Assembly: GCA_030647655.1 (NCBI GenBank)
Contig: JAUSJH010000002.1
Coordinates: 130,445 to 194,444 of the forward strand
From: a bacterium
GTDB lineage: Bacteria; Patescibacteriota; Minisyncoccia; Phycocordibacterales; UBA2100
Direction of reading: 5' to 3'
Length of the DNA stretch: 64,000 nt
The translations under genes and the position numbers were made by a program. This document shows positions 10,829-19,982 of this stretch, one piece after another; within the stretch, counting starts at the first letter, position 1; every line of letters begins with the position of its first letter. The notes below the pieces were generated by a model that worked only from the letters and a program-made list of their open reading frames with translations, did not search any database and was not told where the DNA came from.

Positions 10829-11851
10829 ATGCTTTCCTTTTCACCTAAAACAGCCACAAAAGACCTCCTTGCTGGCCTTCCAGAGCGCTCGCGCCGTGTG
10901 CTTACGGACCGCTTTGGCCTCTCGCAGAAGGGCGAACGTCGCACGCTCGATGCGATAGGACAAGAATATGGCATTACCCGCGAACGCATTCGCCAGATAG
11001 AAAACCACAGCATTACTGCAGTACGCGATTCCGAAGCCTATTCTACCCTTGCGCAGAGCTGGGAGGATCTCAAAGCCGCTGTCCTAGCACTCGGCGGAGT
11101 ACTTTCCGAAGAGACTATCCTCAATGAGCTCGCAAAGAACGAAACAGAGCGCAATCATCTTCTTTTCCTTCTTACGGTCGGGCACCAATTCGACGACCGC
11201 CGCGAGGACAACGATTTCAAAGCCCGCTGGCATATCGACGAGGCGCTTGCAGAATCCGTAGAAGCCGCTCTATCGAGTCTGTACCAATCGATCGAGCCCA
11301 ACAAGCTCACACCGGAAGAGGAATTCCTCGAGCTTTTCGCGCGTCATCTCAAGCAGGAGGGCGTGAAGAATCGTCCGGCCGATGCGCTTCCGCGCTGGCT
11401 CCTTATTTCCAAGCGCATTGGTAGAAACCCGCTCGGCGAGTGGGGGAGGCAGGATTCTCCGCATGTACGCATCAAGAACACGAGGGATTTTGCATACCTC
11501 ACACTGAAGCGGCACGGCTCGCCCATGCATTTCATCGAGGTCGCAAAAAGCATTGAGAAACTTTTCAGCAGGAAGACTCATCCCGCGACGACACACAACG
11601 AGCTCATCAAAGACAACCGCTTCGTGCTCGTCGGCCGCGGACTCTATGCACTCAAAGAATGGGGATACGAACCGGGGGTAGTGCGCGATGTTATTTCAGG
11701 AATACTAAAGCGCGAAGGACCTCTCACGCGTGAGGAGATCATCGAACGCGTGAAGCGCGAGCGTTACGTGAAAGACGCGACCATCTCTGTAAACTTGCAA
11801 AACAATATGTTTGTTCGAAATTCGGACGGCAAATATTCGTTGGCGAAGTAA
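10829..11851 (+). CDS. sigma-70 region-4-like HTH protein with C-terminal HARE-HTH domain
   Basis: The N-terminus (LPERSRRVLTDRFGL...TLDAIGQEYGITRERIRQIE) resembles sigma-70 region 4. The C-terminus (DFAYLTLKRHGSPMHFIEVAKSIEKLF...NRFVLVGRGLYALKEWGY) resembles the HARE-HTH / RNAP delta N-domain. Confidence 0.6.
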   Translation: MLSFSPKTATKDLLAGLPERSRRVLTDRFGLSQKGERRTLDAIGQEYGITRERIRQIENHSITAVRDSEAYSTLAQSWEDLKAAVLALGGVLSEETILNELAKNETERNHLLFLLTVGHQFDDRREDNDFKARWHIDEALAESVEAALSSLYQSIEPNKLTPEEEFLELFARHLKQEGVKNRPADALPRWLLISKRIGRNPLGEWGRQDSPHVRIKNTRDFAYLTLKRHGSPMHFIEVAKSIEKLFSRKTHPATTHNELIKDNRFVLVGRGLYALKEWGYEPGVVRDVISGILKREGPLTREEIIERVKRERYVKDATISVNLQNNMFVRNSDGKYSLAK

Positions 11852-11909: not shown

Positions 11910-13334
11910 ATGATCGATGAATATGAACAGCATGATTTTGCAACAGGGTCGCGGTTTCGCGCACAGTTTCTTTCTCCGCTCTTAAGCTTCGATCTACACA
12001 AGCTAACAGACGCGTTCATCGGCGACGGCTGGGGTATCTCGCGGTGCCTTTTCCTCAGCGTTCTCTTTACCGGCCTTTTGAGCGTCTTGTGGCTCCAAAT
12101 ACCCAATCTTCCACTCTTCGCGTTTGAATGGTTACTAGGGACCGCGCCCCTCTGGTTACCCATTGTCACACTCGTCATCGCATGGAAAGTGTGGATATGG
12201 TATGCCCGGGGAGTGTATCTCTTCGAAAGAAAAGCAATCCTCCTCGAAGTAAAGATTCCTCGCGACATCACGCGTTCGCCGCGGGCGATGGAAAACGCGC
12301 TCTCAAAGCTCTGGGTTGATTCCGGTGAGACGACATTTTTCAACACCGCGTGGCAGGGTCATGTGCGGCCTTATTTTTCTTTTGAGATCGCATCCTTCGG
12401 AGGTGATATTCATTTTTACGTCTGGACGTGGTCCGGATGGAGGGCTGCAGTAGAATCGGCGCTGTACGGATATTACCCAGAGCTTGAGATCGTCGAGGTA
12501 GAAGACTATGCGTCGAAATTCAAATACGATGCAGAGAAGCACGAATGTTTCGCCACGGACTGGCGCTACGAGCCCCGCAACGACGCCTACCCTATAAAGA
12601 CCTATGTTGATTTCGAACTCGACAAAGATCCAAAGGAGGAGTACCGCGTCGATCCTATCGCACAGGTACTCGAACGTTTGAGCAACCTTCGCCCCGATGA
12701 ACAAGGTTGGCTTCAGATAATCATCACACAGTCAAAAGATAAGCGTCGTAAAAAAGGCGGACTCTGGTGGGAAACCGAAAGCCGCTATGAAGGTCTCGTG
12801 AAAGAGGAGGTTGAGAAAATCCGCAGAGATACCGCCCCTTTGCACATAGACGACCGAAGTGCACCGGATGCATGGAAGACCTATGCTCGCGTGCCACTAT
12901 ATCGGGCCACAGAGAGTGTCAAAACTATTGAACGCAATATGGGCAAACACATATTCAACGTCGGTGTGCGGGGCGTATATATCTGCGACCCGGCAAAATT
13001 CAGTGCCGGCGGATATACCGGTGTACGTTGGATCTGGCGCCCATTCGGTAATGTGCAATACCTGAATCAGCTTCGTCCGCGTCGCTGGTCGAACCCGTTC
13101 GACTATCCTTGGCAGGATTGGGGGGACATCCGGTGGACGCTCATGTTGCGCCGCTTTTTTGACGCGTACCGACGACGCTCGTATTTTTATTCTCCGTGGA
13201 TCATTCCGCACAATATGATGTCGACAGAAGTAATCGCGACCCTGTGGCACCCGCCAAGCGCATCTGCTACCGCGCCAGGCCTCCAACGCATCCCCGCCAA
13301 GAAAGCCGAACCACCACCCAATTTGCCGAAGTAG
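11910..13334 (+). CDS. hypothetical Trp-rich protein with two N-terminal TM helices and a large C-terminal domain
   Basis: TM helices at about residues 45-65 and 80-100; the C-terminal ~330 aa is rich in W, Y and R; no family recognised. It starts 58 bp after the preceding gene. Confidence 0.5.
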   Translation: MIDEYEQHDFATGSRFRAQFLSPLLSFDLHKLTDAFIGDGWGISRCLFLSVLFTGLLSVLWLQIPNLPLFAFEWLLGTAPLWLPIVTLVIAWKVWIWYARGVYLFERKAILLEVKIPRDITRSPRAMENALSKLWVDSGETTFFNTAWQGHVRPYFSFEIASFGGDIHFYVWTWSGWRAAVESALYGYYPELEIVEVEDYASKFKYDAEKHECFATDWRYEPRNDAYPIKTYVDFELDKDPKEEYRVDPIAQVLERLSNLRPDEQGWLQIIITQSKDKRRKKGGLWWETESRYEGLVKEEVEKIRRDTAPLHIDDRSAPDAWKTYARVPLYRATESVKTIERNMGKHIFNVGVRGVYICDPAKFSAGGYTGVRWIWRPFGNVQYLNQLRPRRWSNPFDYPWQDWGDIRWTLMLRRFFDAYRRRSYFYSPWIIPHNMMSTEVIATLWHPPSASATAPGLQRIPAKKAEPPPNLPK

Positions 13335-13431: not shown

Positions 13432-14460
13432 ATGCAACCTCTTGAACACGCTCTCGAAAAAATGTTCGATGTGGGACATCGCGCCCTACAACATTTATCA
13501 GAAAGCTGGCGCCTGCATACCAATCGCCGCACCATCATCATTCTTATTGTCGCCGGCTTTTCTCTAGCGTCACTCTATATTTTCGCGATAGAGCCACCGG
13601 AAAATTTCCCGGTCGACAAGCTTGTGGAAGTGCCGGCGGGCGCGTCGCTCAAAGATATAGCAAAGACTCTCGAGGCTCAGGGCGTCGTGCGCTCGGGCCT
13701 TATGCTCCGGATGCTTCTCAAGCTCTCCGGCGACGAGCGGACGGCACACGCGGGCGATTACCTATTTAAGGAGCCGCGCGATATCTTCCGCGTCGCGCGC
13801 GCGCTTGCACTGGGAGCTTACGGGCTCGAGCCCATGCGTATCCGTGTCCCCGAAGGGGCGATGATGAAAGATATGGCACTTGTATTTGGCCGACAGCTCG
13901 AGCGATTCGACACTGCCAATTTTCTTGCGCAAGCGCAACCGCAAGAAGGTTATTTTTTTCCCGACACCTATTTCTTCCTTCCCAACGCAACTGAAGATAC
14001 GGTGATACAGGCAATGCGACAGAATTTCGATACGCACATCGCGACCATCACCCCACAGATCGCGAGCTCGACACATTCTCTTTCCGACATTGTGAAGATG
14101 GCCTCTATACTCGAGCTGGAAGCGCGCAACACCAAGGATCGCCGCACCATCGCCGGCGTTTTGTGGAATAGGCTCGAGCGCGGTATGCCATTGCAGGTTG
14201 ATGTCACATTCCTCTATACAATCGGGAGGGGAACCTTCCAGCTGACAGTGAAAGACCTCACGAGCGATTCACCTTACAATACCTACAACAGTGAGGGCCT
14301 ACCGCCCACGCCCATTGGAAGTCCATCACTCGATTCACTGCTCGCCGCGGCGCAACCGATAAAGAGTGATTACATATATTTTCTTGCCGACCGCCGCGGC
14401 GTTACGCACTATTGCAAGACATATAGTTGCCACATCGCCAACAAAGCGCGGTATTTTTGA
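13432..14460 (+). CDS. mltG: endolytic murein transglycosylase MltG (YceG family)
   Basis: N-terminal TM helix, then the YceG signature ...ARNTKDRRTIAGVLWNRLERGMPLQVDVTFLY...; the start was taken at MQPLEHA. Confidence 0.85.
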   Translation: MQPLEHALEKMFDVGHRALQHLSESWRLHTNRRTIIILIVAGFSLASLYIFAIEPPENFPVDKLVEVPAGASLKDIAKTLEAQGVVRSGLMLRMLLKLSGDERTAHAGDYLFKEPRDIFRVARALALGAYGLEPMRIRVPEGAMMKDMALVFGRQLERFDTANFLAQAQPQEGYFFPDTYFFLPNATEDTVIQAMRQNFDTHIATITPQIASSTHSLSDIVKMASILELEARNTKDRRTIAGVLWNRLERGMPLQVDVTFLYTIGRGTFQLTVKDLTSDSPYNTYNSEGLPPTPIGSPSLDSLLAAAQPIKSDYIYFLADRRGVTHYCKTYSCHIANKARYF

Positions 14461-14465
14461 GCGGC

Positions 14466-15503
14466 ATGGCGCAGACGGTATTCGTTGGTTTGTCGGGAGG
14501 TGTTGATAGCGCGGTTTCGGCTACGCTTTTAAAGAGCCAAGGCCACAACGTTGTTGGTGTTTTCATAAAAATCTGGCAGGCGGAATTCTTAGAGTGTACG
14601 TGGAAGGAGGACAGGCTCGATGCGATGCGCGTCGCCGCAGCACTCGAAATACCATTTCGGGAGGTCGACCTCTCGGAAGAGTACAAGAAAGAGGTGGTCG
14701 AGAAAATGGTTGCCGACTATGCGCGCGGCATCACACCGAACCCCGATGTGCTCTGCAATCGTGCTATCAAATTCGGTGCTTTCGCCGCGTGGGCGAAGAG
14801 CGAGGGGGCAGACATGCTAGCGACGGGGCATTACGTCCAAATAAAAGAACGTGATAATCGTTTTGAACTTCTCCGCGCCAAAGATGCGGCAAAGGACCAG
14901 TCCTATTTTCTATATCGGCTCGACCAGTCTGATCTTGCGCATACGCTTTTCCCGATCGGCGGCATGCTCAAATCCGAAGTACGCGCGGAGGCAAGGCGTT
15001 TCCACCTGCCAGTTGCCGACAAGCCCGATAGTCAGGGGCTCTGTTTCGTAGGGGAAGTCTCGATGGCGGATTTTCTCGCACGATTCATTGCGCTTCAACG
15101 CGGTCCCGTCGTTGCGGGGGGTACGATTGTCGGCGAACATGATGGCGCCGCGCTCTATACGATAGGTCAGCGACACGGATTCACTGCCGAAAATGCCGAA
15201 GGCCCATACTATTTGGTGAGAATAGATGTTCCGACAAATACACTTCATGTGTCGGTGCGGCGCGAAGATGCGGCGCGAACCGAGACCATCATTGAAGATG
15301 TCCACTGGGTATATCGCGAGCCGACCTTGCCACTCGCTGTGCAGGTGCAAGCGCGATATCACGAACAGGAATTCAGCGCGACGCTCTCAAAAAACGACCC
15401 GCAATTCAGTGTGGAATTCGAACATCCGCACATCGCTTCACCCGGACAGTCTCTCGTGCTCTACGATGGAAACACGTGCCTCGGCGGAGGAACTATCAGT
15501 TAA
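14466..15503 (+). CDS. mnmA: tRNA-specific 2-thiouridylase MnmA
   Basis: PP-loop VFVGLSGGVDSAVSATLLK and the catalytic-Cys region (QGLCFVGE); full-length MnmA architecture. Confidence 0.9.
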   Translation: MAQTVFVGLSGGVDSAVSATLLKSQGHNVVGVFIKIWQAEFLECTWKEDRLDAMRVAAALEIPFREVDLSEEYKKEVVEKMVADYARGITPNPDVLCNRAIKFGAFAAWAKSEGADMLATGHYVQIKERDNRFELLRAKDAAKDQSYFLYRLDQSDLAHTLFPIGGMLKSEVRAEARRFHLPVADKPDSQGLCFVGEVSMADFLARFIALQRGPVVAGGTIVGEHDGAALYTIGQRHGFTAENAEGPYYLVRIDVPTNTLHVSVRREDAARTETIIEDVHWVYREPTLPLAVQVQARYHEQEFSATLSKNDPQFSVEFEHPHIASPGQSLVLYDGNTCLGGGTIS

Positions 15504-15530
15504 CAGCGGGCAGGCACCAGTACACAGAAT
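15500..15530. repeat. intergenic repeat motif (copy 2), immediately after the mnmA stop
   Basis: ttaacagcgggcaggcaccagtacacagaa. The stretch cagcgggcaggca can also pair with tgcctgctcgctg at about 15548-15560. Confidence 0.4.
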
Positions 15531-15578
15531 TCTACGAATTCACCGTTGCCTGCTCGCTGTTGCCTGTAAACTGTCTGT

Positions 15579-15986
15579 ATGAGTGAGATGCTCTCCCGCA
15601 TGGTGTGGTTTGTTATTGTAGCGGTTGCGATTTCATACGCGACGTATATAACAGCCGGAAGCATCGTCAACGCGCAGGCACGCGGCGCCTACAAGCCGGT
15701 TATGATACGCGACGTGCTTGGCCCCGGCTCCCATCACCTTTCGGGAATGATCATGGTGCCGACACCATGTCACGAGTTAACGCTTCGCACCGAGGCACTC
15801 TCGGCGGCGACGTACGAGCTCCTCTTCCGAACATGGCATGAACCTTCGGTGGATTGTGATGAGGAGGAAATACCGCGACCTTTTCGCGCCGTACTATTTG
15901 CGCCATCGACAGGCGTCGAGTTCATCGCGACACTCGATGGTGTAGCGCTTCCAATTCAGGTTTTACCGAGTATTGCGGGGCATTGA
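15579..15986 (+). CDS. hypothetical membrane-anchored protein
   Basis: One N-terminal TM helix (MVWFVIVAVAISYATYI) and a ~100-aa extracytoplasmic domain; its stop abuts the start of the next gene. Confidence 0.4.
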   Translation: MSEMLSRMVWFVIVAVAISYATYITAGSIVNAQARGAYKPVMIRDVLGPGSHHLSGMIMVPTPCHELTLRTEALSAATYELLFRTWHEPSVDCDEEEIPRPFRAVLFAPSTGVEFIATLDGVALPIQVLPSIAGH

Positions 15987-16886
15987 TTGCTCTATCAAAC
16001 AAAGGCTATGACAACCACTCAACAAAAAGCTCCATCTCTCGCGCCGCGCGCGATGCTACACCATCCACATATTCTCGTTACAAAAGCAGACGGCGAACAA
16101 GAGGCATTTGATCCTGCGAAACTCGAACATTCTTTGCAGCTTTCGGGCGCAAGCTCGACGATGCGAGCGCGTATCTTGGCGCACGTGATGCAGGAATTGC
16201 GTCCGAACATGATGACGGAAGAGATATATCATCATGCTTTTGAGATATTACGGAAGGAAGAGGCGGCTCCTGTCGCGGCACGCTATTCCATTAAACGAGC
16301 GGTCTTTGCGCTCGGCCCTTCAGGTTTCCCTTTCGAACAATTTCTAGCGGAAGTTTTACGCGCGCATGGGTGGAAAGCGCAGACAGGAGTTGCATTAAAC
16401 GGGCGCTGTGCGCCGCACGAAGTGGATGTATTCGCCGAGAAGGACGGAAGACGCATCGGAATTGAAGCAAAATTTCACAACGACGCCGCGGGAAAGACAG
16501 ATATCAAAGACGCGCTCTATGTGCACGCACGCTATGAAGATCTTCGCGCGACACCCGACGTTTCTTCGCGCGTGGACGAAGGGTGGCTCGTAACCAACAC
16601 GCGCTTTACGAGGAATGCTATTCGCTATGCGCAATGCTCGGGTCTCTCGCTTATCGGGTGGGATTATCCACATGACCGTGGCCTTCTCACACTCATCGAG
16701 GAGGCGCGCGTGCACCCGCTCACGTGCCTCACGACGCTCTCGGAGAGCGAAAAACACCGTCTTCTCGATCAAAGAATCGTGCTTTGTAAACACGTGCAGA
16801 CTACGCATCTGCTTCAGGAATTCGGGATAAAACCGGATCGTATCCCGAAGGTGCTGGACGAAGCGCGACAGCTCTGCGGCATTTGA
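15987..16886 (+). CDS. ATP-cone domain fused to Mrr-type (PD-(D/E)XK) restriction endonuclease-like domain
   Basis: Residues ~27-110 match the ATP-cone consensus (ILVTKADGEQEAFDPAKLEHSLQL...TEEIYHHAFEILR...ARYSIKRA). They are followed by FEQFLAEVLRAHGW...HEVDVFAEKDGRRIGIEAKFHN, i.e. a D...E-A-K nuclease core. Confidence 0.65.
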   Translation: MLYQTKAMTTTQQKAPSLAPRAMLHHPHILVTKADGEQEAFDPAKLEHSLQLSGASSTMRARILAHVMQELRPNMMTEEIYHHAFEILRKEEAAPVAARYSIKRAVFALGPSGFPFEQFLAEVLRAHGWKAQTGVALNGRCAPHEVDVFAEKDGRRIGIEAKFHNDAAGKTDIKDALYVHARYEDLRATPDVSSRVDEGWLVTNTRFTRNAIRYAQCSGLSLIGWDYPHDRGLLTLIEEARVHPLTCLTTLSESEKHRLLDQRIVLCKHVQTTHLLQEFGIKPDRIPKVLDEARQLCGI

Positions 16887-16948
16887 TTGAGCACATGATT
16901 CAGCAGAATCACCCTAGGGGCTCACCTACTGGGTGATATAATCGCGGT

Positions 16949-17452
16949 ATGCGCTCCGCTGCGATATTCATGGATCCAACGGTCGTGATGTTTGGGAAAC
17001 TTTTATTGGCGATGCTCCTCGGCGGCATCATAGGGACAGAGCGCGCTGTGCTCGCGAGACAATCCGCCGGCACGCGCACCTTCGGTCTCGTGTCTTTGGG
17101 TGCATGTCTTTTTGTCATTACGGGGAATTACGTCGATACTGCATACCTCGGAGTGCTTAATTTCGATCCAATGCGCGTCGCTGCGGGCATCATTATGGGC
17201 ATTGGATTTCTCGGCGGTGGCATTATCGTGTTCCGCGGGGACGCGGTACACGGCACCACGACTGCCGCAGGTCTCTGGATCGCCGCCGGTGTTGGTATTG
17301 CGACCGGATTCGGCCTCTACTCTATAGCAATCTTCTCAACCATCCTCTCGCTCCTCATGTTTACCGGAATGTGGTACGTCGAGAATCGTTTCAAGCATTG
17401 GTTTGAAGAGCGCCGGTCGGATGTGCAGGGAAACAATTCGCAGGACACATAG
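16949..17452 (+). CDS. mgtC: MgtC/SapB family membrane protein
   Basis: LLLAMLLGGIIGTERAVLARQSAGTRTFGLVSLGACLF is the MgtC N-domain signature; 4-5 TM helices. Confidence 0.75.
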   Translation: MRSAAIFMDPTVVMFGKLLLAMLLGGIIGTERAVLARQSAGTRTFGLVSLGACLFVITGNYVDTAYLGVLNFDPMRVAAGIIMGIGFLGGGIIVFRGDAVHGTTTAAGLWIAAGVGIATGFGLYSIAIFSTILSLLMFTGMWYVENRFKHWFEERRSDVQGNNSQDT

Positions 17453-17474
17453 CGCATGGTGGTATACTCCCCGC

Positions 17475-18275
17475 ATGCCGAAAGGGTACCAGAAGCGGAC
17501 GCGTAATTTGTATGACCCGAATGCTTCGGAGTCATTCCGCGTGAGCCGTACCAAGATAGATCTCTTTCACGAATGCCCTCGTTGTTTCTATCTCGATGTA
17601 CGCCTCGGTGTGCCACGCACGTCGTTCCCCGCATTCACTCTGAACAATGCCGTTGATGAGCTCATGAAGCGCGAGTTCGATATCCATCGGGCAAAAGATG
17701 AGGCGCACCCTCTGATGAAGACCTATAAAATAGACGCCGTACCCCTGAATGATGTGCGTATGGAAGAGTGGCGCGATGCCTTGCGCCGCGGCATCCAATA
17801 CCATCACAAGCCAACGGGCCTCATTTTTCGCGGAGGCGTTGATGATATCTGGATAAACTCTAAAGGTGAGCTCATAGTTGTTGATTACAAGGCGACGAGC
17901 AAGAAAGAGGAAGTGAATATCGAAGGTTACTGGCAACAAGGATACAAGCGACAAGTAGAAATTTATCAGTGGCTTTTGCGCGGTATCGGTGAAAAGGTAT
18001 CGCCGACGGCCTACTTCGTGTATGTGAACGGCAAAAGCGACGCCAAAGCATTCGACGGCAGGCTTGAGTTTGAAGTGAAGATAATCCCGCACGAAGGCGA
18101 CACATCGTGGATAGAGCCTCTCGTTATCAAACTCGCGGAATGCTTAAAGGGTGATGTTGTGCCAGCGCCGAATGAGACATGTGAATACTGCGGCTACCGC
18201 GAAGCGGCTGGAAAGGAATTGCAGGCACGGGTGAAGCCAAAAAAGGAGGGCGGACAGAAATCTCTCGGGCTATGA
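17475..18275 (+). CDS. PD-(D/E)XK nuclease, Cas4/RecB-like with 4-Cys cluster
   Basis: CPRCFY near the N-terminus, GGVDDIW...ELIVVDYKAT (D-x(n)-E/D-x-K), a QxxxY-type motif (QVEIYQW), and C-terminal CEYCGY. Confidence 0.6.
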   Translation: MPKGYQKRTRNLYDPNASESFRVSRTKIDLFHECPRCFYLDVRLGVPRTSFPAFTLNNAVDELMKREFDIHRAKDEAHPLMKTYKIDAVPLNDVRMEEWRDALRRGIQYHHKPTGLIFRGGVDDIWINSKGELIVVDYKATSKKEEVNIEGYWQQGYKRQVEIYQWLLRGIGEKVSPTAYFVYVNGKSDAKAFDGRLEFEVKIIPHEGDTSWIEPLVIKLAECLKGDVVPAPNETCEYCGYREAAGKELQARVKPKKEGGQKSLGL

Positions 18276-18550
18276 AATCGTTCACAGAAGAGGTGCGCGA
18301 CATCGTGCGGAAAATACCTAGGGGTAAGTCAATGACATACAAAGAGGTTGCCGCAAAGGCGGGGAATTCAAAAGCGGCGCGAGCCGTTGGCGCCATCATG
18401 CGCTCCAATTACAATCGCGATATCCCGTGCCACCGCGTCGTTCGCTCCGACGGCTCACTAGGGAATTACAACAGGGGCGGAACATTGCGAAAGCGCGAAA
18501 TTTTGACGAGAGAAGGGGCCTTTGAGTTCAAGAGTAGAGGAAGTTCTTGA
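18272..18550 (+). CDS. MGMT-family DNA-binding domain protein (methylated-DNA-protein-cysteine methyltransferase C-domain-like)
   Basis: YKEVAAKAGNSKAARAVGAIMRSNYNRDIPCHRVVRSDGSLGNY; the PCHR active-site cysteine is present. Only 92 aa, and overlaps the upstream nuclease by 4 bp. Confidence 0.7.
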   Translation: MKSFTEEVRDIVRKIPRGKSMTYKEVAAKAGNSKAARAVGAIMRSNYNRDIPCHRVVRSDGSLGNYNRGGTLRKREILTREGAFEFKSRGSS

Positions 18551-19982
18551 ATTGCCACGGGTCGCCCACGTCGGCGTCGTCGCCAAAGAGCGCGCCGTCC
18601 CTTTTGAGCGGCGTCCAATCAGTGAATGCGCCGGTCATCTTACCCATGTACGGGGTGATTATCTTCATGATGCGCTCAAAATCTATCTCGTCGGCTTCCA
18701 CGATTCCTTCCCGCGGATGTTCAATCGCCCACACCATTCCGCCGAGCACTCCAGCCGTCACTTGCAGTCCGGTCGCGTTTTGGTAGGGCGCGAGCTTCCG
18801 CGTCTCCTCAATGGTCAATTGCGAGCCATACCAATACGCGCCTTTTTTGTGTCCCATCAGAAGCACTCCGAGCTCGTCCATGCCGGATTCTATTTCTTCA
18901 AGAAGAATGCGCTGTTCGGGCTGAAGGACATTATTGTTGCCGAGACATTCTTCTAGGGAGAGGAGCGACGCGTCGCAAGAGCGGTATGCGTAGTGTACCG
19001 TCGGTCGGTAGACCGTCTCGTCCTTTTGTTTGAGGGAAAAGTAATCAGCGATGGATATGGATTCGTTGTGCGTCACTGCTCGTCCAAGGAAATGCCCGTG
19101 CTGAGGCGTCCATGTGCGTACGAGCACTTTCGCACCGGGGCGTTCGAGGTAGATGGCCGCGCCGCATCCGAAATCGTGCCGACGCGCACCTTTCGGCCAA
19201 TGTTTCTCGTGCGTACCCCAGCCCATCTCGCTCGGCTGGTTGATCCCTTCCGAATGAAAGCCGTTCACGGACCACGTGTTCTCAAATCTACCGATTTTCT
19301 TCGGCGTGGACGCGACTTGTGAATCATATTCGGCAATATGGATGGTCCGGACAGAAAGTTTGCGCATCAAAGCCGCCCACTCTTTGCGATTCTGGGGTTT
19401 TTTCACTTTGTAGCCGATCTTTTTTGCGATATTAAGAAGCGCTTGTTTTACGAAGTGGGAGACGATACCGGGATTTGCTCCGTGCGCCACGACCGAAGTC
19501 GCTTTCCCCATTGAAGTTTTCTTGAGCGCAAGTGCATTCTCGCGCAATCCATAGTTGGAGCGCTGGGATATGGTGAGCGATGGGTCGCTGTATCCGCCGA
19601 ACCACGGTTCGATACAGGTATCAAGGTAGAGAATATCGTGCTTGTGGCAGAATTGTATGAGGTCAAGCGATGAAACGTCCACCGAAAGGTTCAAGAGAAA
19701 ATCTCCCGGACCAATGCGCGAGCGGAGTACTTTTTCATAATTTTCGCTCGTGACAGCTTTGATGCGGAATCGAATACCTTCTTTACGCGCAACACCGCGT
19801 CCGGTAGGATCCGCAGTGATAATACTGATATTCTTTCTATCAATTCCGATGTGCCGTAGTATCAAAGGGAGTACCCCCTGACCGATGCTTCCAAATCCGA
19901 TTATCAGTAACTTTCCGGGAAATCGCACATAGACAGGATACGGAGGCTTCCGCGATTGTCGTTTTTTATTCCTCTTCGCCAT
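18528..19982 (-). CDS. homospermidine synthase-like / saccharopine dehydrogenase family NAD(P)-binding protein
   Basis: N-terminal Rossmann fold (LLIIGFGSIGQGVLPLILRH) and a length of about 480 aa are typical of bacterial Hss. Confidence 0.55.
   Translation of the reverse strand: MAKRNKKRQSRKPPYPVYVRFPGKLLIIGFGSIGQGVLPLILRHIGIDRKNISIITADPTGRGVARKEGIRFRIKAVTSENYEKVLRSRIGPGDFLLNLSVDVSSLDLIQFCHKHDILYLDTCIEPWFGGYSDPSLTISQRSNYGLRENALALKKTSMGKATSVVAHGANPGIVSHFVKQALLNIAKKIGYKVKKPQNRKEWAALMRKLSVRTIHIAEYDSQVASTPKKIGRFENTWSVNGFHSEGINQPSEMGWGTHEKHWPKGARRHDFGCGAAIYLERPGAKVLVRTWTPQHGHFLGRAVTHNESISIADYFSLKQKDETVYRPTVHYAYRSCDASLLSLEECLGNNNVLQPEQRILLEEIESGMDELGVLLMGHKKGAYWYGSQLTIEETRKLAPYQNATGLQVTAGVLGGMVWAIEHPREGIVEADEIDFERIMKIITPYMGKMTGAFTDWTPLKRDGALFGDDADVGDPWQFKNFLYS

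What the first reader, a model, noticed from the sequence alone, without database searches (positions are those of the whole stretch)
15579..16886. Two-gene module: small membrane protein plus ATP-cone/Mrr-type nuclease fusion
The 15987..16886 gene joins an ATP-cone domain, best known as the nucleotide-sensing allosteric module of NrdR and ribonucleotide reductases, to a PD-(D/E)XK domain of the Mrr type with an intact D...E-A-K core (HEVDVF...GIEAKFHN). It is translationally coupled to an upstream membrane-anchored protein: that gene's stop at 15986 abuts the ATG at 15987. A nuclease gated by nucleotides and paired with a membrane component is the kind of arrangement seen in abortive-infection or defence systems. 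That is an inference; I recognise no described system with this gene pair.
Basis: partly seen in the sequence, partly recalled or inferred. Interest (0 to 1): 0.6.

Follow-up and report, generated by a model that had tools for sequence, protein, structure and literature searches.

The report
ATP-cone nuclease, conserved core gene
The gene really does fuse an ATP-sensing domain to an intact DNA-cutting domain, but it is a slowly evolving core gene of a Candidatus Kaiserbacteria-like bacterium that sits next to MgtC and housekeeping genes, not a two-gene phage-defence module, and its function is still untested.

Summary
Both ORFs are real. The 15987..16886 product passes Pfam Mrr_cat (41.7 bits) and, only just, ATP-cone (26.1 against a cut-off of 25.8). 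An AlphaFold model (pLDDT 92.8) supports both domains.

D125, E138 and K140 are invariant in 144 representatives of distinct 50%-identity clusters. ATP-cone residues K11, G14 and K23 are kept in 138-141 of them.

Corrections: 15987 is TTG, not ATG. The likely starts are ATG 16008 or ATG 16053.

The "two-gene defence module" reading fails. The small membrane protein is a lineage-restricted orphan found in 24 of 172 related loci, although it abuts the nuclease wherever it occurs. The nuclease lies in a conserved block (DnaB, sigma, MltG, MnmA, nuclease, MgtC, Cas4-like nuclease, ATL, UDG). It evolves more slowly than MnmA (74% against 58% median identity) and was not found in viral contigs.

Its recurrent neighbours across phyla are cation-handling genes: MgtC in Patescibacteria, and P-type ATPases with metal-efflux genes in Bacteroidota and Chlamydiota and in part of a divergent metagenome set that includes some archaea.

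Best reading: an adenine-nucleotide-gated housekeeping DNA endonuclease, possibly tied to cation and energy homeostasis.

The parts
15579..15986 (+). Small single-pass membrane protein (135 aa). It has an N-terminal transmembrane helix and a roughly 100-aa beta-sandwich with two invariant cysteines (C64, C93). It is a lineage-restricted orphan.
   Evidence: The ORF is. There is no Pfam, NCBIfam or PADLOC hit. It has 26 homologue clusters, all close relatives without Pfam domains. The AF2 model has pLDDT 88 and no PDB fold match at E<1. A profile HMM finds it in 24 of 172 loci, always directly upstream of the nuclease.
15987..16886 (+). ATP-cone / Mrr-type PD-(D/E)XK / AF1548-like_C three-domain protein. 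This is the maximal ORF from TTG 15987. The probable starts are ATG 16008 (292 aa) or ATG 16053 (277 aa).
16074..16298 (+). ATP-cone domain (beta-hairpin plus helical bundle). The motif is I-x-V-T-K-A-D-G-x-x-E-x-F-x-x-x-K-L.
   Evidence: Pfam PF03477 scores 26.1 bits against a cut-off of 25.8. Foldseek matches NrdR ATP-cones at rmsd 1.7-2.8 A over 82-87 residues, and RNR cones. K11 is kept in 141/144, G14 in 140/144, F19 in 131/144 and K23 in 138/144 cluster representatives.
16323..16655 (+). Mrr_cat / AF1548-type PD-(D/E)XK nuclease domain. Catalytic residues are D125 (16425-16427), E138 (16464-16466) and K140 (16470-16472), with E95 and E123 also conserved.
   Evidence: Pfam PF04471 scores 41.7 bits. 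PDB 1Y88 matches at E=1.7e-30 and by Foldseek at E=3.6e-16, TM 0.80. D125, E138, K140, R160 and D163 are kept in 144/144; E95 and E123 in 143/144. These residues align with the predicted AF1548 catalytic residues D38, E51 and K53 (PMC1821046, PMC1874628).
16665..16883 (+). AF1548-like C-terminal helical domain. It is probably helix-hairpin-helix-like and binds nucleic acid.
   Evidence: The phmmer alignment to 1Y88 runs through residue 276. Homologues score PF22357 AF1548-like_C. The model shows 4-5 helices at pLDDT >90. The helix-hairpin-helix reading is my inference from the sequence pattern.
16949..17452 (+). MgtC-family membrane protein (167 aa), immediately downstream. It is the most widely conserved membrane neighbour of the nuclease.
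   Evidence: Pfam MgtC scores 109.6 bits. It lies downstream in 62 of 86 loci and within 5 kb in 54 of 73 Patescibacteria loci. An MgtC+DUF4010 protein directly follows the homologue in Saprospiraceae and Sediminibacterium.
14427..15503 (+). MnmA (tRNA 2-thiouridylase), the conserved upstream neighbour. It is context only and no functional link is shown.
   Evidence: Pfam. It lies upstream in 76 of 86 loci.
17403..18550 (+). Downstream Cas4-like PDDEXK_1 nuclease (17403..18275, start uncertain) and alkyltransferase-like (ATL) DNA-binding protein (18272..18550, 4-nt overlap). This is a co-directional context that is conserved within Patescibacteria only.
   Evidence: Pfam, PADLOC and NCBIfam. 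PDDEXK_1 is present in 58 of 86 loci and ATL in 45 of 86.

Best explanation
The 15987..16886 gene encodes a single-copy, slowly evolving core protein of a Candidatus Kaiserbacteria-like (Patescibacteria) genome. It has three domains: an N-terminal ATP-cone, a central Mrr/AF1548-type PD-(D/E)XK nuclease with a complete metal-binding and catalytic site, and a C-terminal AF1548-like helical domain, probably helix-hairpin-helix.

Most likely mechanism (inferred): the C-terminal domain holds DNA without sequence specificity. The PD-(D/E)XK site cuts it in a Mg2+-dependent way. The ATP-cone switches the enzyme's oligomeric state or activity when it binds an adenine nucleotide (ATP, dATP or a related ligand), as ATP-cones do in NrdR and ribonucleotide reductases.

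Its physiological role is housekeeping rather than phage defence. The only neighbourhood theme that recurs across phyla is cation handling: MgtC in Patescibacteria; translationally overlapping P-type cation ATPases, MgtC, PPK2 and nucleotide-turnover enzymes in Bacteroidota and Chlamydiota; and HMA P-type ATPases, CsoR, ZIP and multicopper oxidase genes in a divergent metagenome set that includes some archaeal loci. I therefore propose that it couples the cell's adenylate or energy status to nucleic-acid cleavage within cation (Mg2+/metal) and energy homeostasis.

The upstream small membrane protein is a lineage-specific, tightly juxtaposed addition, not a defining partner.

Shown: the domains, the conservation of active-site and cone residues, core-gene behaviour, and the neighbour statistics. 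Inferred: ligand identity, substrate, the gating mechanism, and any link to MgtC or cation pumps.
For: - Domains: Pfam, PDB 1Y88 at E=1.7e-30, AF2 model at pLDDT 92.8, and Foldseek hits to 1Y88, to the MspJI, AspBHI, NucS and Can2 nuclease domains, and to NrdR and RNR ATP-cones.
- Active site and cone residues are near-invariant in 144 representatives of 50%-identity clusters.
- Family size and uniform architecture: 430 clusters at E<1e-30, nearly all full-length (about 265-310 aa) among the 150 listed, and at least 599 GTDB species.
- Core-gene behaviour: a conserved syntenic block. Median identity is 74% for the nuclease against 58% for MnmA, 57% for MltG and 48% for the small protein, and the nuclease is the most conserved gene of the block in 19 of 34 loci.
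- No intrinsic terminator-like site on the + strand lies between the genes of the block.
- Cation theme: MgtC is downstream in 62/86 loci. MgtC is within 5 kb in 54/73 Patescibacteria loci, a P-type ATPase in 7/8 Bacteroidota and Chlamydiota loci, and some cation or metal gene in 13/57 divergent loci.
- ORFs overlap with the P-type ATPase in both gene orders. The same cassette occurs on the Pontibacter and Criblamydia plasmids.
- HMA-ATPase, CsoR, ZIP and multicopper oxidase identities were confirmed by Pfam. P-type ATPase is the commonest immediate neighbour among 104 flanking proteins.
Against: - No biochemical data exist for any member.
- The ATP-cone score only just passes the Pfam threshold, and the arginine that follows the conserved lysine in many cones is replaced by Ala or Ser.
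- Within Patescibacteria, adjacency to MgtC could be inherited synteny rather than a functional link.
- In the divergent set, 44 of 57 loci show no cation gene and the neighbourhoods are heterogeneous.
- The window itself has no P-type ATPase hit and no Mg2+ riboswitch.
- In Bacteroidota the gene rides on what look like mobile metal-resistance islands, so co-transfer could explain the co-occurrence there.
- The neighbours within Patescibacteria (PDDEXK_1, ATL, UDG) point equally to DNA repair.
Confidence: 0.45

Rival explanations
1. DNA-repair or recombination endonuclease. Here the protein is a structure- or lesion-specific nuclease, like a Holliday-junction resolvase or NucS/EndoMS. It would work with the neighbouring Cas4-like PDDEXK_1 exonuclease, ATL and UDG, with the ATP-cone tying its activity to the dATP/ATP pool.
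For: - It is co-directional and tightly packed with PDDEXK_1 (58/86 loci), ATL (45/86) and UDG (18/86) in Patescibacteria.
- RmuC, RecR and DnaB lie nearby in the window.
- The nuclease domain matches NucS/EndoMS by fold (2vld, 5gkj).
- Some JGI annotations call homologues 'Holliday junction resolvase'.
- Strong conservation fits a core DNA-metabolism role.
- A class II RNR lies within 5 kb in 4 of 57 divergent loci.
Against: - The repair neighbours are confined to Patescibacteria. They are absent from the Bacteroidota and Chlamydiota loci, and nearly absent from the divergent set except in Patescibacteria-type loci.
- The JGI names are automatic COG labels, not tests.
- Whether these genomes lack RuvC or RecU could not be checked from a 64-kb window.
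Confidence: 0.2
2. NrdR-like, nucleotide-responsive DNA-binding regulator. Here the nuclease-fold and helical domains serve mainly to bind DNA. The ATP-cone would drive ATP- or dATP-dependent oligomerisation that represses or activates adjacent operons for ATP-consuming transporters.
For: - The ATP-cone closely superposes on NrdR cones.
- The gene sits inside, or at the head of, operons for P-type ATPases and energy or nucleotide enzymes, in either gene order.
- It is a small, single-copy protein of constant length.
Against: - The catalytic D, E and K, plus E95 and E123, are invariant in 143-144 of 144 diverged representatives. That argues for retained catalysis.
- Some of the same loci already carry a dedicated metal regulator, CsoR.
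- No conserved operator-like motif was looked for or found.
Confidence: 0.12
3. One reading: a two-gene abortive-infection or defence module. A nucleotide-gated Mrr-type nuclease is the effector, and the small membrane protein is its sensor or partner.
For: - Where the small gene exists it abuts or overlaps the nuclease start by a few nucleotides.
- The nuclease domain resembles those of defence enzymes: MspJI, AspBHI, Avs4, Can2, Cdn1 and ZorD.
- Homologues occur on two plasmids.
Against: - The small gene is absent from 148 of 172 related loci, including close relatives.
- The context is a syntenic housekeeping block, with no defence island.
- The nuclease is more conserved than MnmA and MltG.
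- No relative was found in viral contigs.
- No defence family recurs among immediate neighbours in other lineages.
- On plasmids it sits in metal-resistance and metabolic cassettes, not defence clusters.
Confidence: 0.07

Closest known systems
AF1548 of Archaeoglobus fulgidus (PDB 1Y88; Pfam Mrr_cat plus AF1548-like_C; PD-(D/E)XK superfamily group 'Mrr_cat, DUF2034 / COG1787' of Steczkiewicz et al. 2012, PMC3424549)
   Same: The nuclease and C-terminal helical domains are homologous (phmmer E=1.7e-30, 96-276 against 22-197; Foldseek E=3.6e-16, TM 0.80). The same D...ExK residues are predicted catalytic in AF1548 (D38, E51, K53; PMC1821046, PMC1874628).
   Different: The 199-aa AF1548 chain matches only query residues 96-276, so no equivalent of the ATP-cone (query residues about 7-86) is aligned. 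It is a structural-genomics protein of unknown function, so it gives no mechanistic information.
NrdR and the N-terminal activity sites of ribonucleotide reductases (ATP-cone, PF03477)
   Same: The sensor fold is the same (rmsd 1.7-2.8 A to E. coli NrdR cones). The beta-hairpin Lys/Gly/Glu/Lys pattern is conserved. The expected logic is also the same: adenine-nucleotide binding changes the oligomeric state or activity.
   Different: The output domain is a PD-(D/E)XK nuclease plus a helical domain, not a Zn-ribbon or an RNR barrel. There is no Zn-ribbon. The ligand is untested, and the Pfam score only just passes.
E. coli Mrr and modification-dependent type IV enzymes (MspJI, AspBHI)
   Same: They share the Mrr_cat-type catalytic domain (fold hits 4oc8, 4f0q).
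   Different: No Mrr_N winged-helix or SRA-like domain for reading modified DNA was detected in the window protein by Pfam. The distribution is core and syntenic rather than patchy. No restriction or defence context was found.
mgtCB(R)-type loci (MgtC with a P-type Mg2+ ATPase, Salmonella; from my own knowledge of the literature)
   Same: An MgtC-family gene is the immediate neighbour in Patescibacteria. In Saprospiraceae and Sediminibacterium the order is P-type cation ATPase, ATP-cone nuclease, MgtC+DUF4010. ATP level is a known input to mgtC regulation in Salmonella (my recollection, not checked here).
   Different: No nuclease is part of the described mgtCB system. The Patescibacteria MgtC is only the membrane domain. 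The window shows no P-type ATPase and no Mg2+ riboswitch.

Membership tests
ATP-cone (PF03477) | Profile HMM match at or above the curated gathering score | tested here: met
   26.1 bits against a cut-off of 25.8, E=1.2e-5, residues 30-104 of the 299-aa ORF. This is a marginal pass. Many homologues also carry the precomputed hit.
ATP-cone (PF03477) | The characteristic fold: an N-terminal beta-hairpin capping a helical bundle | tested here: met
   The AF2 model (pLDDT about 92 in this region) superposes on E. coli NrdR cones at rmsd 1.7-2.8 A over 82-87 residues, and on RNR cones.
ATP-cone (PF03477) | Conserved nucleotide-contacting residues of the hairpin (K-R-D-G...E...K in RNRs) | tested here: inconclusive
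   K11 141/144, G14 140/144, E17 101/144, K23 138/144. The position after K11 is Ala or Ser rather than Arg. The mapping to RNR and NrdR residues is from my own knowledge, not from a residue-level structural alignment.
ATP-cone (PF03477) | Binds ATP and/or dATP and thereby changes activity or oligomeric state | not testable with these tools
   This requires binding and activity assays.
PD-(D/E)XK nuclease, Mrr_cat type (PF04471) | Profile HMM match above the gathering score | tested here: met
   41.7 bits against a cut-off of 21.
PD-(D/E)XK nuclease, Mrr_cat type (PF04471) | Intact catalytic D...(D/E)-x-K | tested here: met
   D125, E138 and K140 are kept in 144/144 family representatives; E95 and E123 in 143/144. 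They align with AF1548 D38, E51 and K53.
Mrr proper (type IV modification-dependent restriction enzyme) | An N-terminal DNA-recognition domain of the Mrr_N / winged-helix type, with a defence-type patchy distribution | tested here: not met
   The only N-terminal domain found in the window protein is the ATP-cone. The distribution is core and syntenic.
AF1548 family (PDB 1Y88; PF22357 AF1548-like_C) | Homology across both the nuclease domain and the C-terminal helical domain | tested here: met
   phmmer E=1.7e-30 over query residues 96-276; Foldseek TM 0.80. PF22357 itself was not reported for the window protein at E<=0.01, but it passes in the homologue P0281 (29.4 bits against 23.9).
Known anti-phage defence systems (PADLOC-DB 2.0) | A match to a system-specific protein model, with the system's partner genes nearby | tested here: not met
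   There is only a 21.5-bit match to the Mrr-like nuclease end of ZorD, and no hit for the small protein. The neighbours are housekeeping genes. No defence family recurs among 104 neighbours elsewhere.
Two-gene module (small membrane protein plus nuclease) as a conserved unit | The two genes co-occur as neighbours across relatives | tested here: not met
   The small protein is found in 24 of 172 loci by profile HMM and is absent where the nuclease is 76-78% identical. Where it is present, it is always adjacent.
NrdR | An N-terminal Zn-ribbon followed by an ATP-cone | tested here: not met
   There is no Zn-ribbon. The cone is N-terminal and is followed by a nuclease domain.

The most novel reading that the evidence does not exclude
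The ATP-cone/PD-(D/E)XK/AF1548_C protein may be a conserved functional partner of MgtC and P-type cation pumps in CPR bacteria, Bacteroidota and Chlamydiota and in some divergent, partly archaeal lineages. On this reading it is an adenylate-sensing nuclease that couples cellular energy or nucleotide status to nucleic-acid cleavage. The cleavage could, for example, mobilise nucleotides, phosphate or Mg2+, or reset replication, when ATP-driven cation pumps are engaged. That would be a homeostatic axis not described so far.
Probability: 0.18. Interest if true: 0.7.

Novelty: new variant of a known kind. Interest (0 to 1): 0.42.

Why it matters
ATP-cones have so far been characterised mainly as allosteric switches of ribonucleotide reductases and of the repressor NrdR. 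This family attaches the same sensor to an apparently active nuclease.

The family is large: at least 430 clusters at 50% identity and at least 599 species. In Patescibacteria it is kept under purifying selection as strong as, or stronger than, that on housekeeping enzymes in the same block. Many of the conserved proteins of these small genomes still have no assigned role.

If the nucleotide gating is real, this would be a new output for a classic sensor. If the link to MgtC and cation pumps is real, it would open a testable connection between energy charge, divalent cations and nucleic-acid turnover.

For this finding in particular, the practical lesson is negative. "A nuclease next to a membrane protein" is not evidence of phage defence here.

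Tried and rejected
- **NCBIfam:** no model matches either protein.
- **PADLOC:** only a weak match to the ZorD nuclease domain.
- **Rfam:** nothing across the whole window at gathering thresholds, and nothing at E<=1 over 15300-17200. There is no Mg2+ or other riboswitch.
- **Promoter and terminator scan:** counts are close to the shuffled expectation and no + strand terminator lies between the genes. This is uninformative apart from being compatible with one long operon.
- **IMG/VR viral contigs:** no relatives.
- **First genome contigs attempt:** failed with the 40-sequence alignment because it had no conserved stretch. It was repeated with 10 sequences.
- **Cluster look-up of 10 divergent representatives:** gave no organism names.
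- **Literature:** searches for ATP-cone with restriction endonuclease, Mrr, nuclease, MgtC or Patescibacteria, and for AF1548 or 1Y88, found only structural-genomics and classification mentions and no functional study.
- **A link to MnmA or tRNA:** considered because MnmA is upstream in 76/86 loci, then rejected. MnmA is absent next to the gene outside Patescibacteria.
- **The Bacteroidota cassette in Patescibacteria:** tested whether the beta-CASP, thymidine-phosphorylase-like and Prs-like genes also occur next to the gene in Patescibacteria. They do not.
Full report
**1. What is in the sequence**

Two co-directional ORFs occupy 15579..15986 (135 aa) and 15987..16886. The in-frame ATGs are at 16008 and 16053.

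The exact-match database protein is 277 aa and starts at 16053 (P0001). I translated the region upstream of the conserved 'ILVTKA' in about 50 related loci. The N-terminal extension is not conserved in sequence. The closest relatives nevertheless have their only ATG 15-28 codons upstream. The analogous ATG in the window is 16008.

In relatives that carry the small gene, the first ATG of the nuclease lies between a 4-nt overlap and 9 nt after the small gene's stop.

The window matches an NCBI MAG contig of 197,796 bp labelled 'bacterium', locus tag Q7S50_00880 for the small protein. The nearest named relatives are Candidatus Kaiserbacteria.

**2. Domains of the nuclease**

- Pfam gives Mrr_cat (41.7 bits, cut-off 21) and ATP-cone (26.1 bits, cut-off 25.8, a marginal pass).
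- A sequence search of the PDB finds one strong relative, AF1548 of Archaeoglobus fulgidus (1Y88), at E=1.7e-30.
- Pfam calls that domain AF1548-like_C (PF22357) in homologues.
- An AlphaFold2 model built on 61 sequences has mean pLDDT 92.8.
- Foldseek against the PDB returns 1Y88 first (E=3.6e-16, TM 0.80). Next come the nuclease domains of AspBHI, MspJI, Cdn1, NucS/EndoMS, Can2 and Avs4.
- For the N-terminal part, Foldseek returns E. coli NrdR cones (rmsd 1.7-2.8 A over 82-87 residues) and RNR cones.
- The sequence pattern of the C-terminal domain looks like tandem helix-hairpin-helix motifs. This is my inference and was not tested.

**3. Is it likely to be active?**

I aligned 144 full-length sequences: the window protein plus 143 representatives of clusters at 50% identity or less.

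| Residue(s) | Kept in |
|---|---|
| D125, E138, K140, R160, D163 | 144/144 |
| E95, E123 | 143/144 |
| K11 (cone) | 141/144 |
| G14 (cone) | 140/144 |
| F19 (cone) | 131/144 |
| K23 (cone) | 138/144 |
| C119, C195 | 135/144 each |

These counts are. D125, E138 and K140 align with the residues predicted to be catalytic in AF1548, namely D38, E51 and K53 (PMC1821046, PMC1874628).

This is the pattern expected of a working nuclease with a working sensor domain. One deviation stands out: the residue after K11 is Ala or Ser, not the Arg common in RNR cones.

**4. The family**

- A full HMMER scan of 1.84 billion cluster representatives gives 1,164 hits at E<=1e-3 and 430 at E<=1e-30. Nearly all of the best 150 are full-length, about 265-310 aa. 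The three-domain architecture is therefore fixed.
- The nearest relatives are Patescibacteria: Kaiserbacteria, Paceibacterota, Wolfebacteria, Zambryskibacteria and Yonathbacteria.
- Bacteroidota also carry it, including Cyclobacterium, Algoriphagus, Flavobacterium, Sediminibacterium, Saprospiraceae and Pontibacter. So does a Criblamydia (Chlamydiota) plasmid.
- Archaeal markers (thermosome, class V FBPase) among neighbours in a divergent metagenome set, together with AF1548 itself, show that archaea carry it too.
- No relative was found in IMG/VR viral contigs.

**5. The proposed two-gene module**

The small protein has a transmembrane helix (residues 2-34) and an 8-strand beta domain with two invariant cysteines. 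It has no Pfam, NCBIfam or PADLOC match and no PDB fold match at E<1.

It has only 26 homologue clusters, all from close relatives. A profile HMM finds it in 24 of 172 related loci, always immediately upstream of the nuclease.

It is missing from relatives whose nuclease is 76-78% identical. In those genomes MnmA is followed by about 110 nt and then the nuclease. It also diverges much faster than the nuclease, with a median identity of 48% against 74%.

It is therefore a real gene and probably co-translated with the nuclease where present. It is a lineage-specific addition, not a defining partner.

**6. Genomic context in Patescibacteria**

The window and its relatives share a co-directional block:

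DnaB, sigma-like protein, 474-aa protein, MltG, MnmA, (small protein), nuclease, MgtC, Cas4-like PDDEXK_1, ATL, ..., UDG

The window also carries RmuC and RecR upstream.

Over 86 loci, the neighbours found were:

| Neighbour | Loci (of 86) |
|---|---|
| MnmA (upstream) | 76 |
| MltG | 65 |
| MgtC (downstream) | 62 |
| PDDEXK_1 | 58 |
| ATL | 45 |
| Small protein | 22 by tblastn |

In 36 Kaiserbacteria-level loci the nuclease has a median identity of 74% to the window protein. The other genes score 58% (MnmA), 57% (MltG), 65% (MgtC), 50% (PDDEXK_1), 73% (ATL) and 80% (UDG). The nuclease is the most conserved gene of the block in 19 of 34 loci.

No + strand terminator-like site separates the genes. 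This is core-genome behaviour, not that of a defence island.

**7. Context outside Patescibacteria**

In Bacteroidota and on the Criblamydia plasmid, the homologue (37-47% identical) lies in tightly packed operons.

- A P-type cation ATPase with Cation_ATPase_N and C domains overlaps it by 8-11 nt, in either gene order.
- MgtC+DUF4010 and PPK2 follow it in Saprospiraceae and Sediminibacterium.
- A beta-CASP metallo-beta-lactamase nuclease is present in 7 of 8 loci.
- A pair made of a thymidine-phosphorylase-family gene and a ribose-phosphate-pyrophosphokinase gene recurs.
- The surroundings are RND/CusB/HMBD metal-efflux genes. Gene lengths are identical across genera, which suggests a mobile island.
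- The beta-CASP, Prs and TP trio is reported as microoxia-induced in Bradyrhizobium diazoefficiens (PMC6515984).

In a deliberately divergent metagenome set of 57 loci of at least 4 kb, neighbourhoods are heterogeneous. Among 104 immediate neighbours there are 143 Pfam families. The recurring neighbours are HMA-type P1B ATPases (9 loci), CsoR, ZIP, multicopper oxidase and class II RNR (4 loci). No defence family recurs.

Summary:

| Set | Loci with a cation or metal gene within 5 kb |
|---|---|
| Patescibacteria | 55 of 73 (MgtC in 54) |
| Bacteroidota and Chlamydiota | 7 of 8 (P-type ATPase) |
| Divergent metagenome loci | 13 of 57 |

**8. Interpretation**

The evidence supports a conserved, probably active endonuclease that senses an adenine nucleotide and has a housekeeping role. 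The one theme that recurs across phyla is cation transport (MgtC and P-type ATPases), together with energy and nucleotide metabolism.

My best mechanistic guess is ATP-cone-controlled oligomerisation or activity of a Mg2+-dependent DNA nuclease, with DNA held by the C-terminal helical domain. This would connect energy status with nucleic-acid cleavage in cation homeostasis. Confidence is 0.45 for the overall picture and much less for the cation link itself.

The rivals are:
- a repair or recombination nuclease working with the adjacent PDDEXK_1, ATL and UDG genes (0.2; this association is confined to Patescibacteria);
- an NrdR-like regulator that does not cut (0.12; the invariant catalytic residues argue against it);

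**9. What is known**

AF1548/1Y88 is a structural-genomics protein predicted to be a restriction-type nuclease (PMC1821046, PMC1874628). It is placed in the Mrr_cat/COG1787 group of the PD-(D/E)XK superfamily (PMC3424549).

Public annotations call the family 'ATP cone domain-containing protein' or 'restriction endonuclease'. I found no functional study of any member.

The fusion itself is thus already catalogued. The behaviour described here is not: a core gene in Patescibacteria with cation-gene neighbours across phyla. I rate it a new variant of a known kind, of moderate interest.

**10. Limits**

- Neighbour counts are not corrected for phylogeny.
- Synteny within Patescibacteria may be inherited.
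- Co-occurrence in Bacteroidota may reflect co-transfer on mobile islands.
- Ligand, substrate and phenotype are all untested.

Noticed in passing
L080:6001-10616; L088:4387-13735; L090:7001-14241; L091:1972-6597; L092:8995-13602: In Bacteroidota and on a Criblamydia plasmid there is a recurrent cassette: ATP-cone nuclease, beta-CASP MBL nuclease, thymidine-phosphorylase-family protein (about 500 aa) and ribose-phosphate pyrophosphokinase. It often comes with a P-type cation ATPase, MgtC+DUF4010, PPK2 and AAA_28, inside RND/CusB/HMBD metal-efflux islands. Gene lengths are identical across genera, which suggests a mobile element. The MBL, Prs and TP trio is microoxia-induced in Bradyrhizobium (PMC6515984).
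   Followed up: partly
window 11910-13334: A 474-aa protein with no Pfam match (a faint DUF8128 hit in one relative). It is conserved upstream of MltG in 60 of 86 Patescibacteria loci and its function is unknown.
   Followed up: no
window 17403-18550: A Cas4-like PDDEXK_1 nuclease ending in a Cys-rich tail (...CEYCGY...). Its stop overlaps by 4 nt the start of an 92-aa alkyltransferase-like (MGMT DNA-binding domain only) protein. The pair is conserved in many Patescibacteria loci. The listed PDDEXK_1 ORF start (17403) overlaps the end of MgtC (17452), so the true start is probably later.
   Followed up: partly
window 10829-11851: A 340-aa protein combining sigma-70 region 4 at its N-terminus with a HARE-HTH domain. 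It is conserved next to DnaB in relatives (L001, L005). This is an unusual sigma-like architecture.
   Followed up: no
L115:11070-13598 and three other divergent metagenome loci: A class II ribonucleotide reductase (with a TSCPD domain) lies within 5 kb of the ATP-cone nuclease in 4 of 57 divergent loci. This is a possible hint of a link to the dNTP pool.
   Followed up: partly
window residues C119 and C195 of the nuclease (nt 16407-16409 and 16635-16637): Two cysteines are conserved in 135 of 144 family representatives, and C245 in 106 of 144. Given the metal-gene neighbourhoods, a metal or redox site is conceivable.
   Followed up: no
window 18528-19982 (- strand); L001:8768-11294: A saccharopine-dehydrogenase or homospermidine-synthase-like gene lies convergent to the block in the window. 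In a relative it is co-directional and preceded by an ornithine/DAP decarboxylase. This looks like a polyamine module inserted between ATL and UDG.
   Followed up: no
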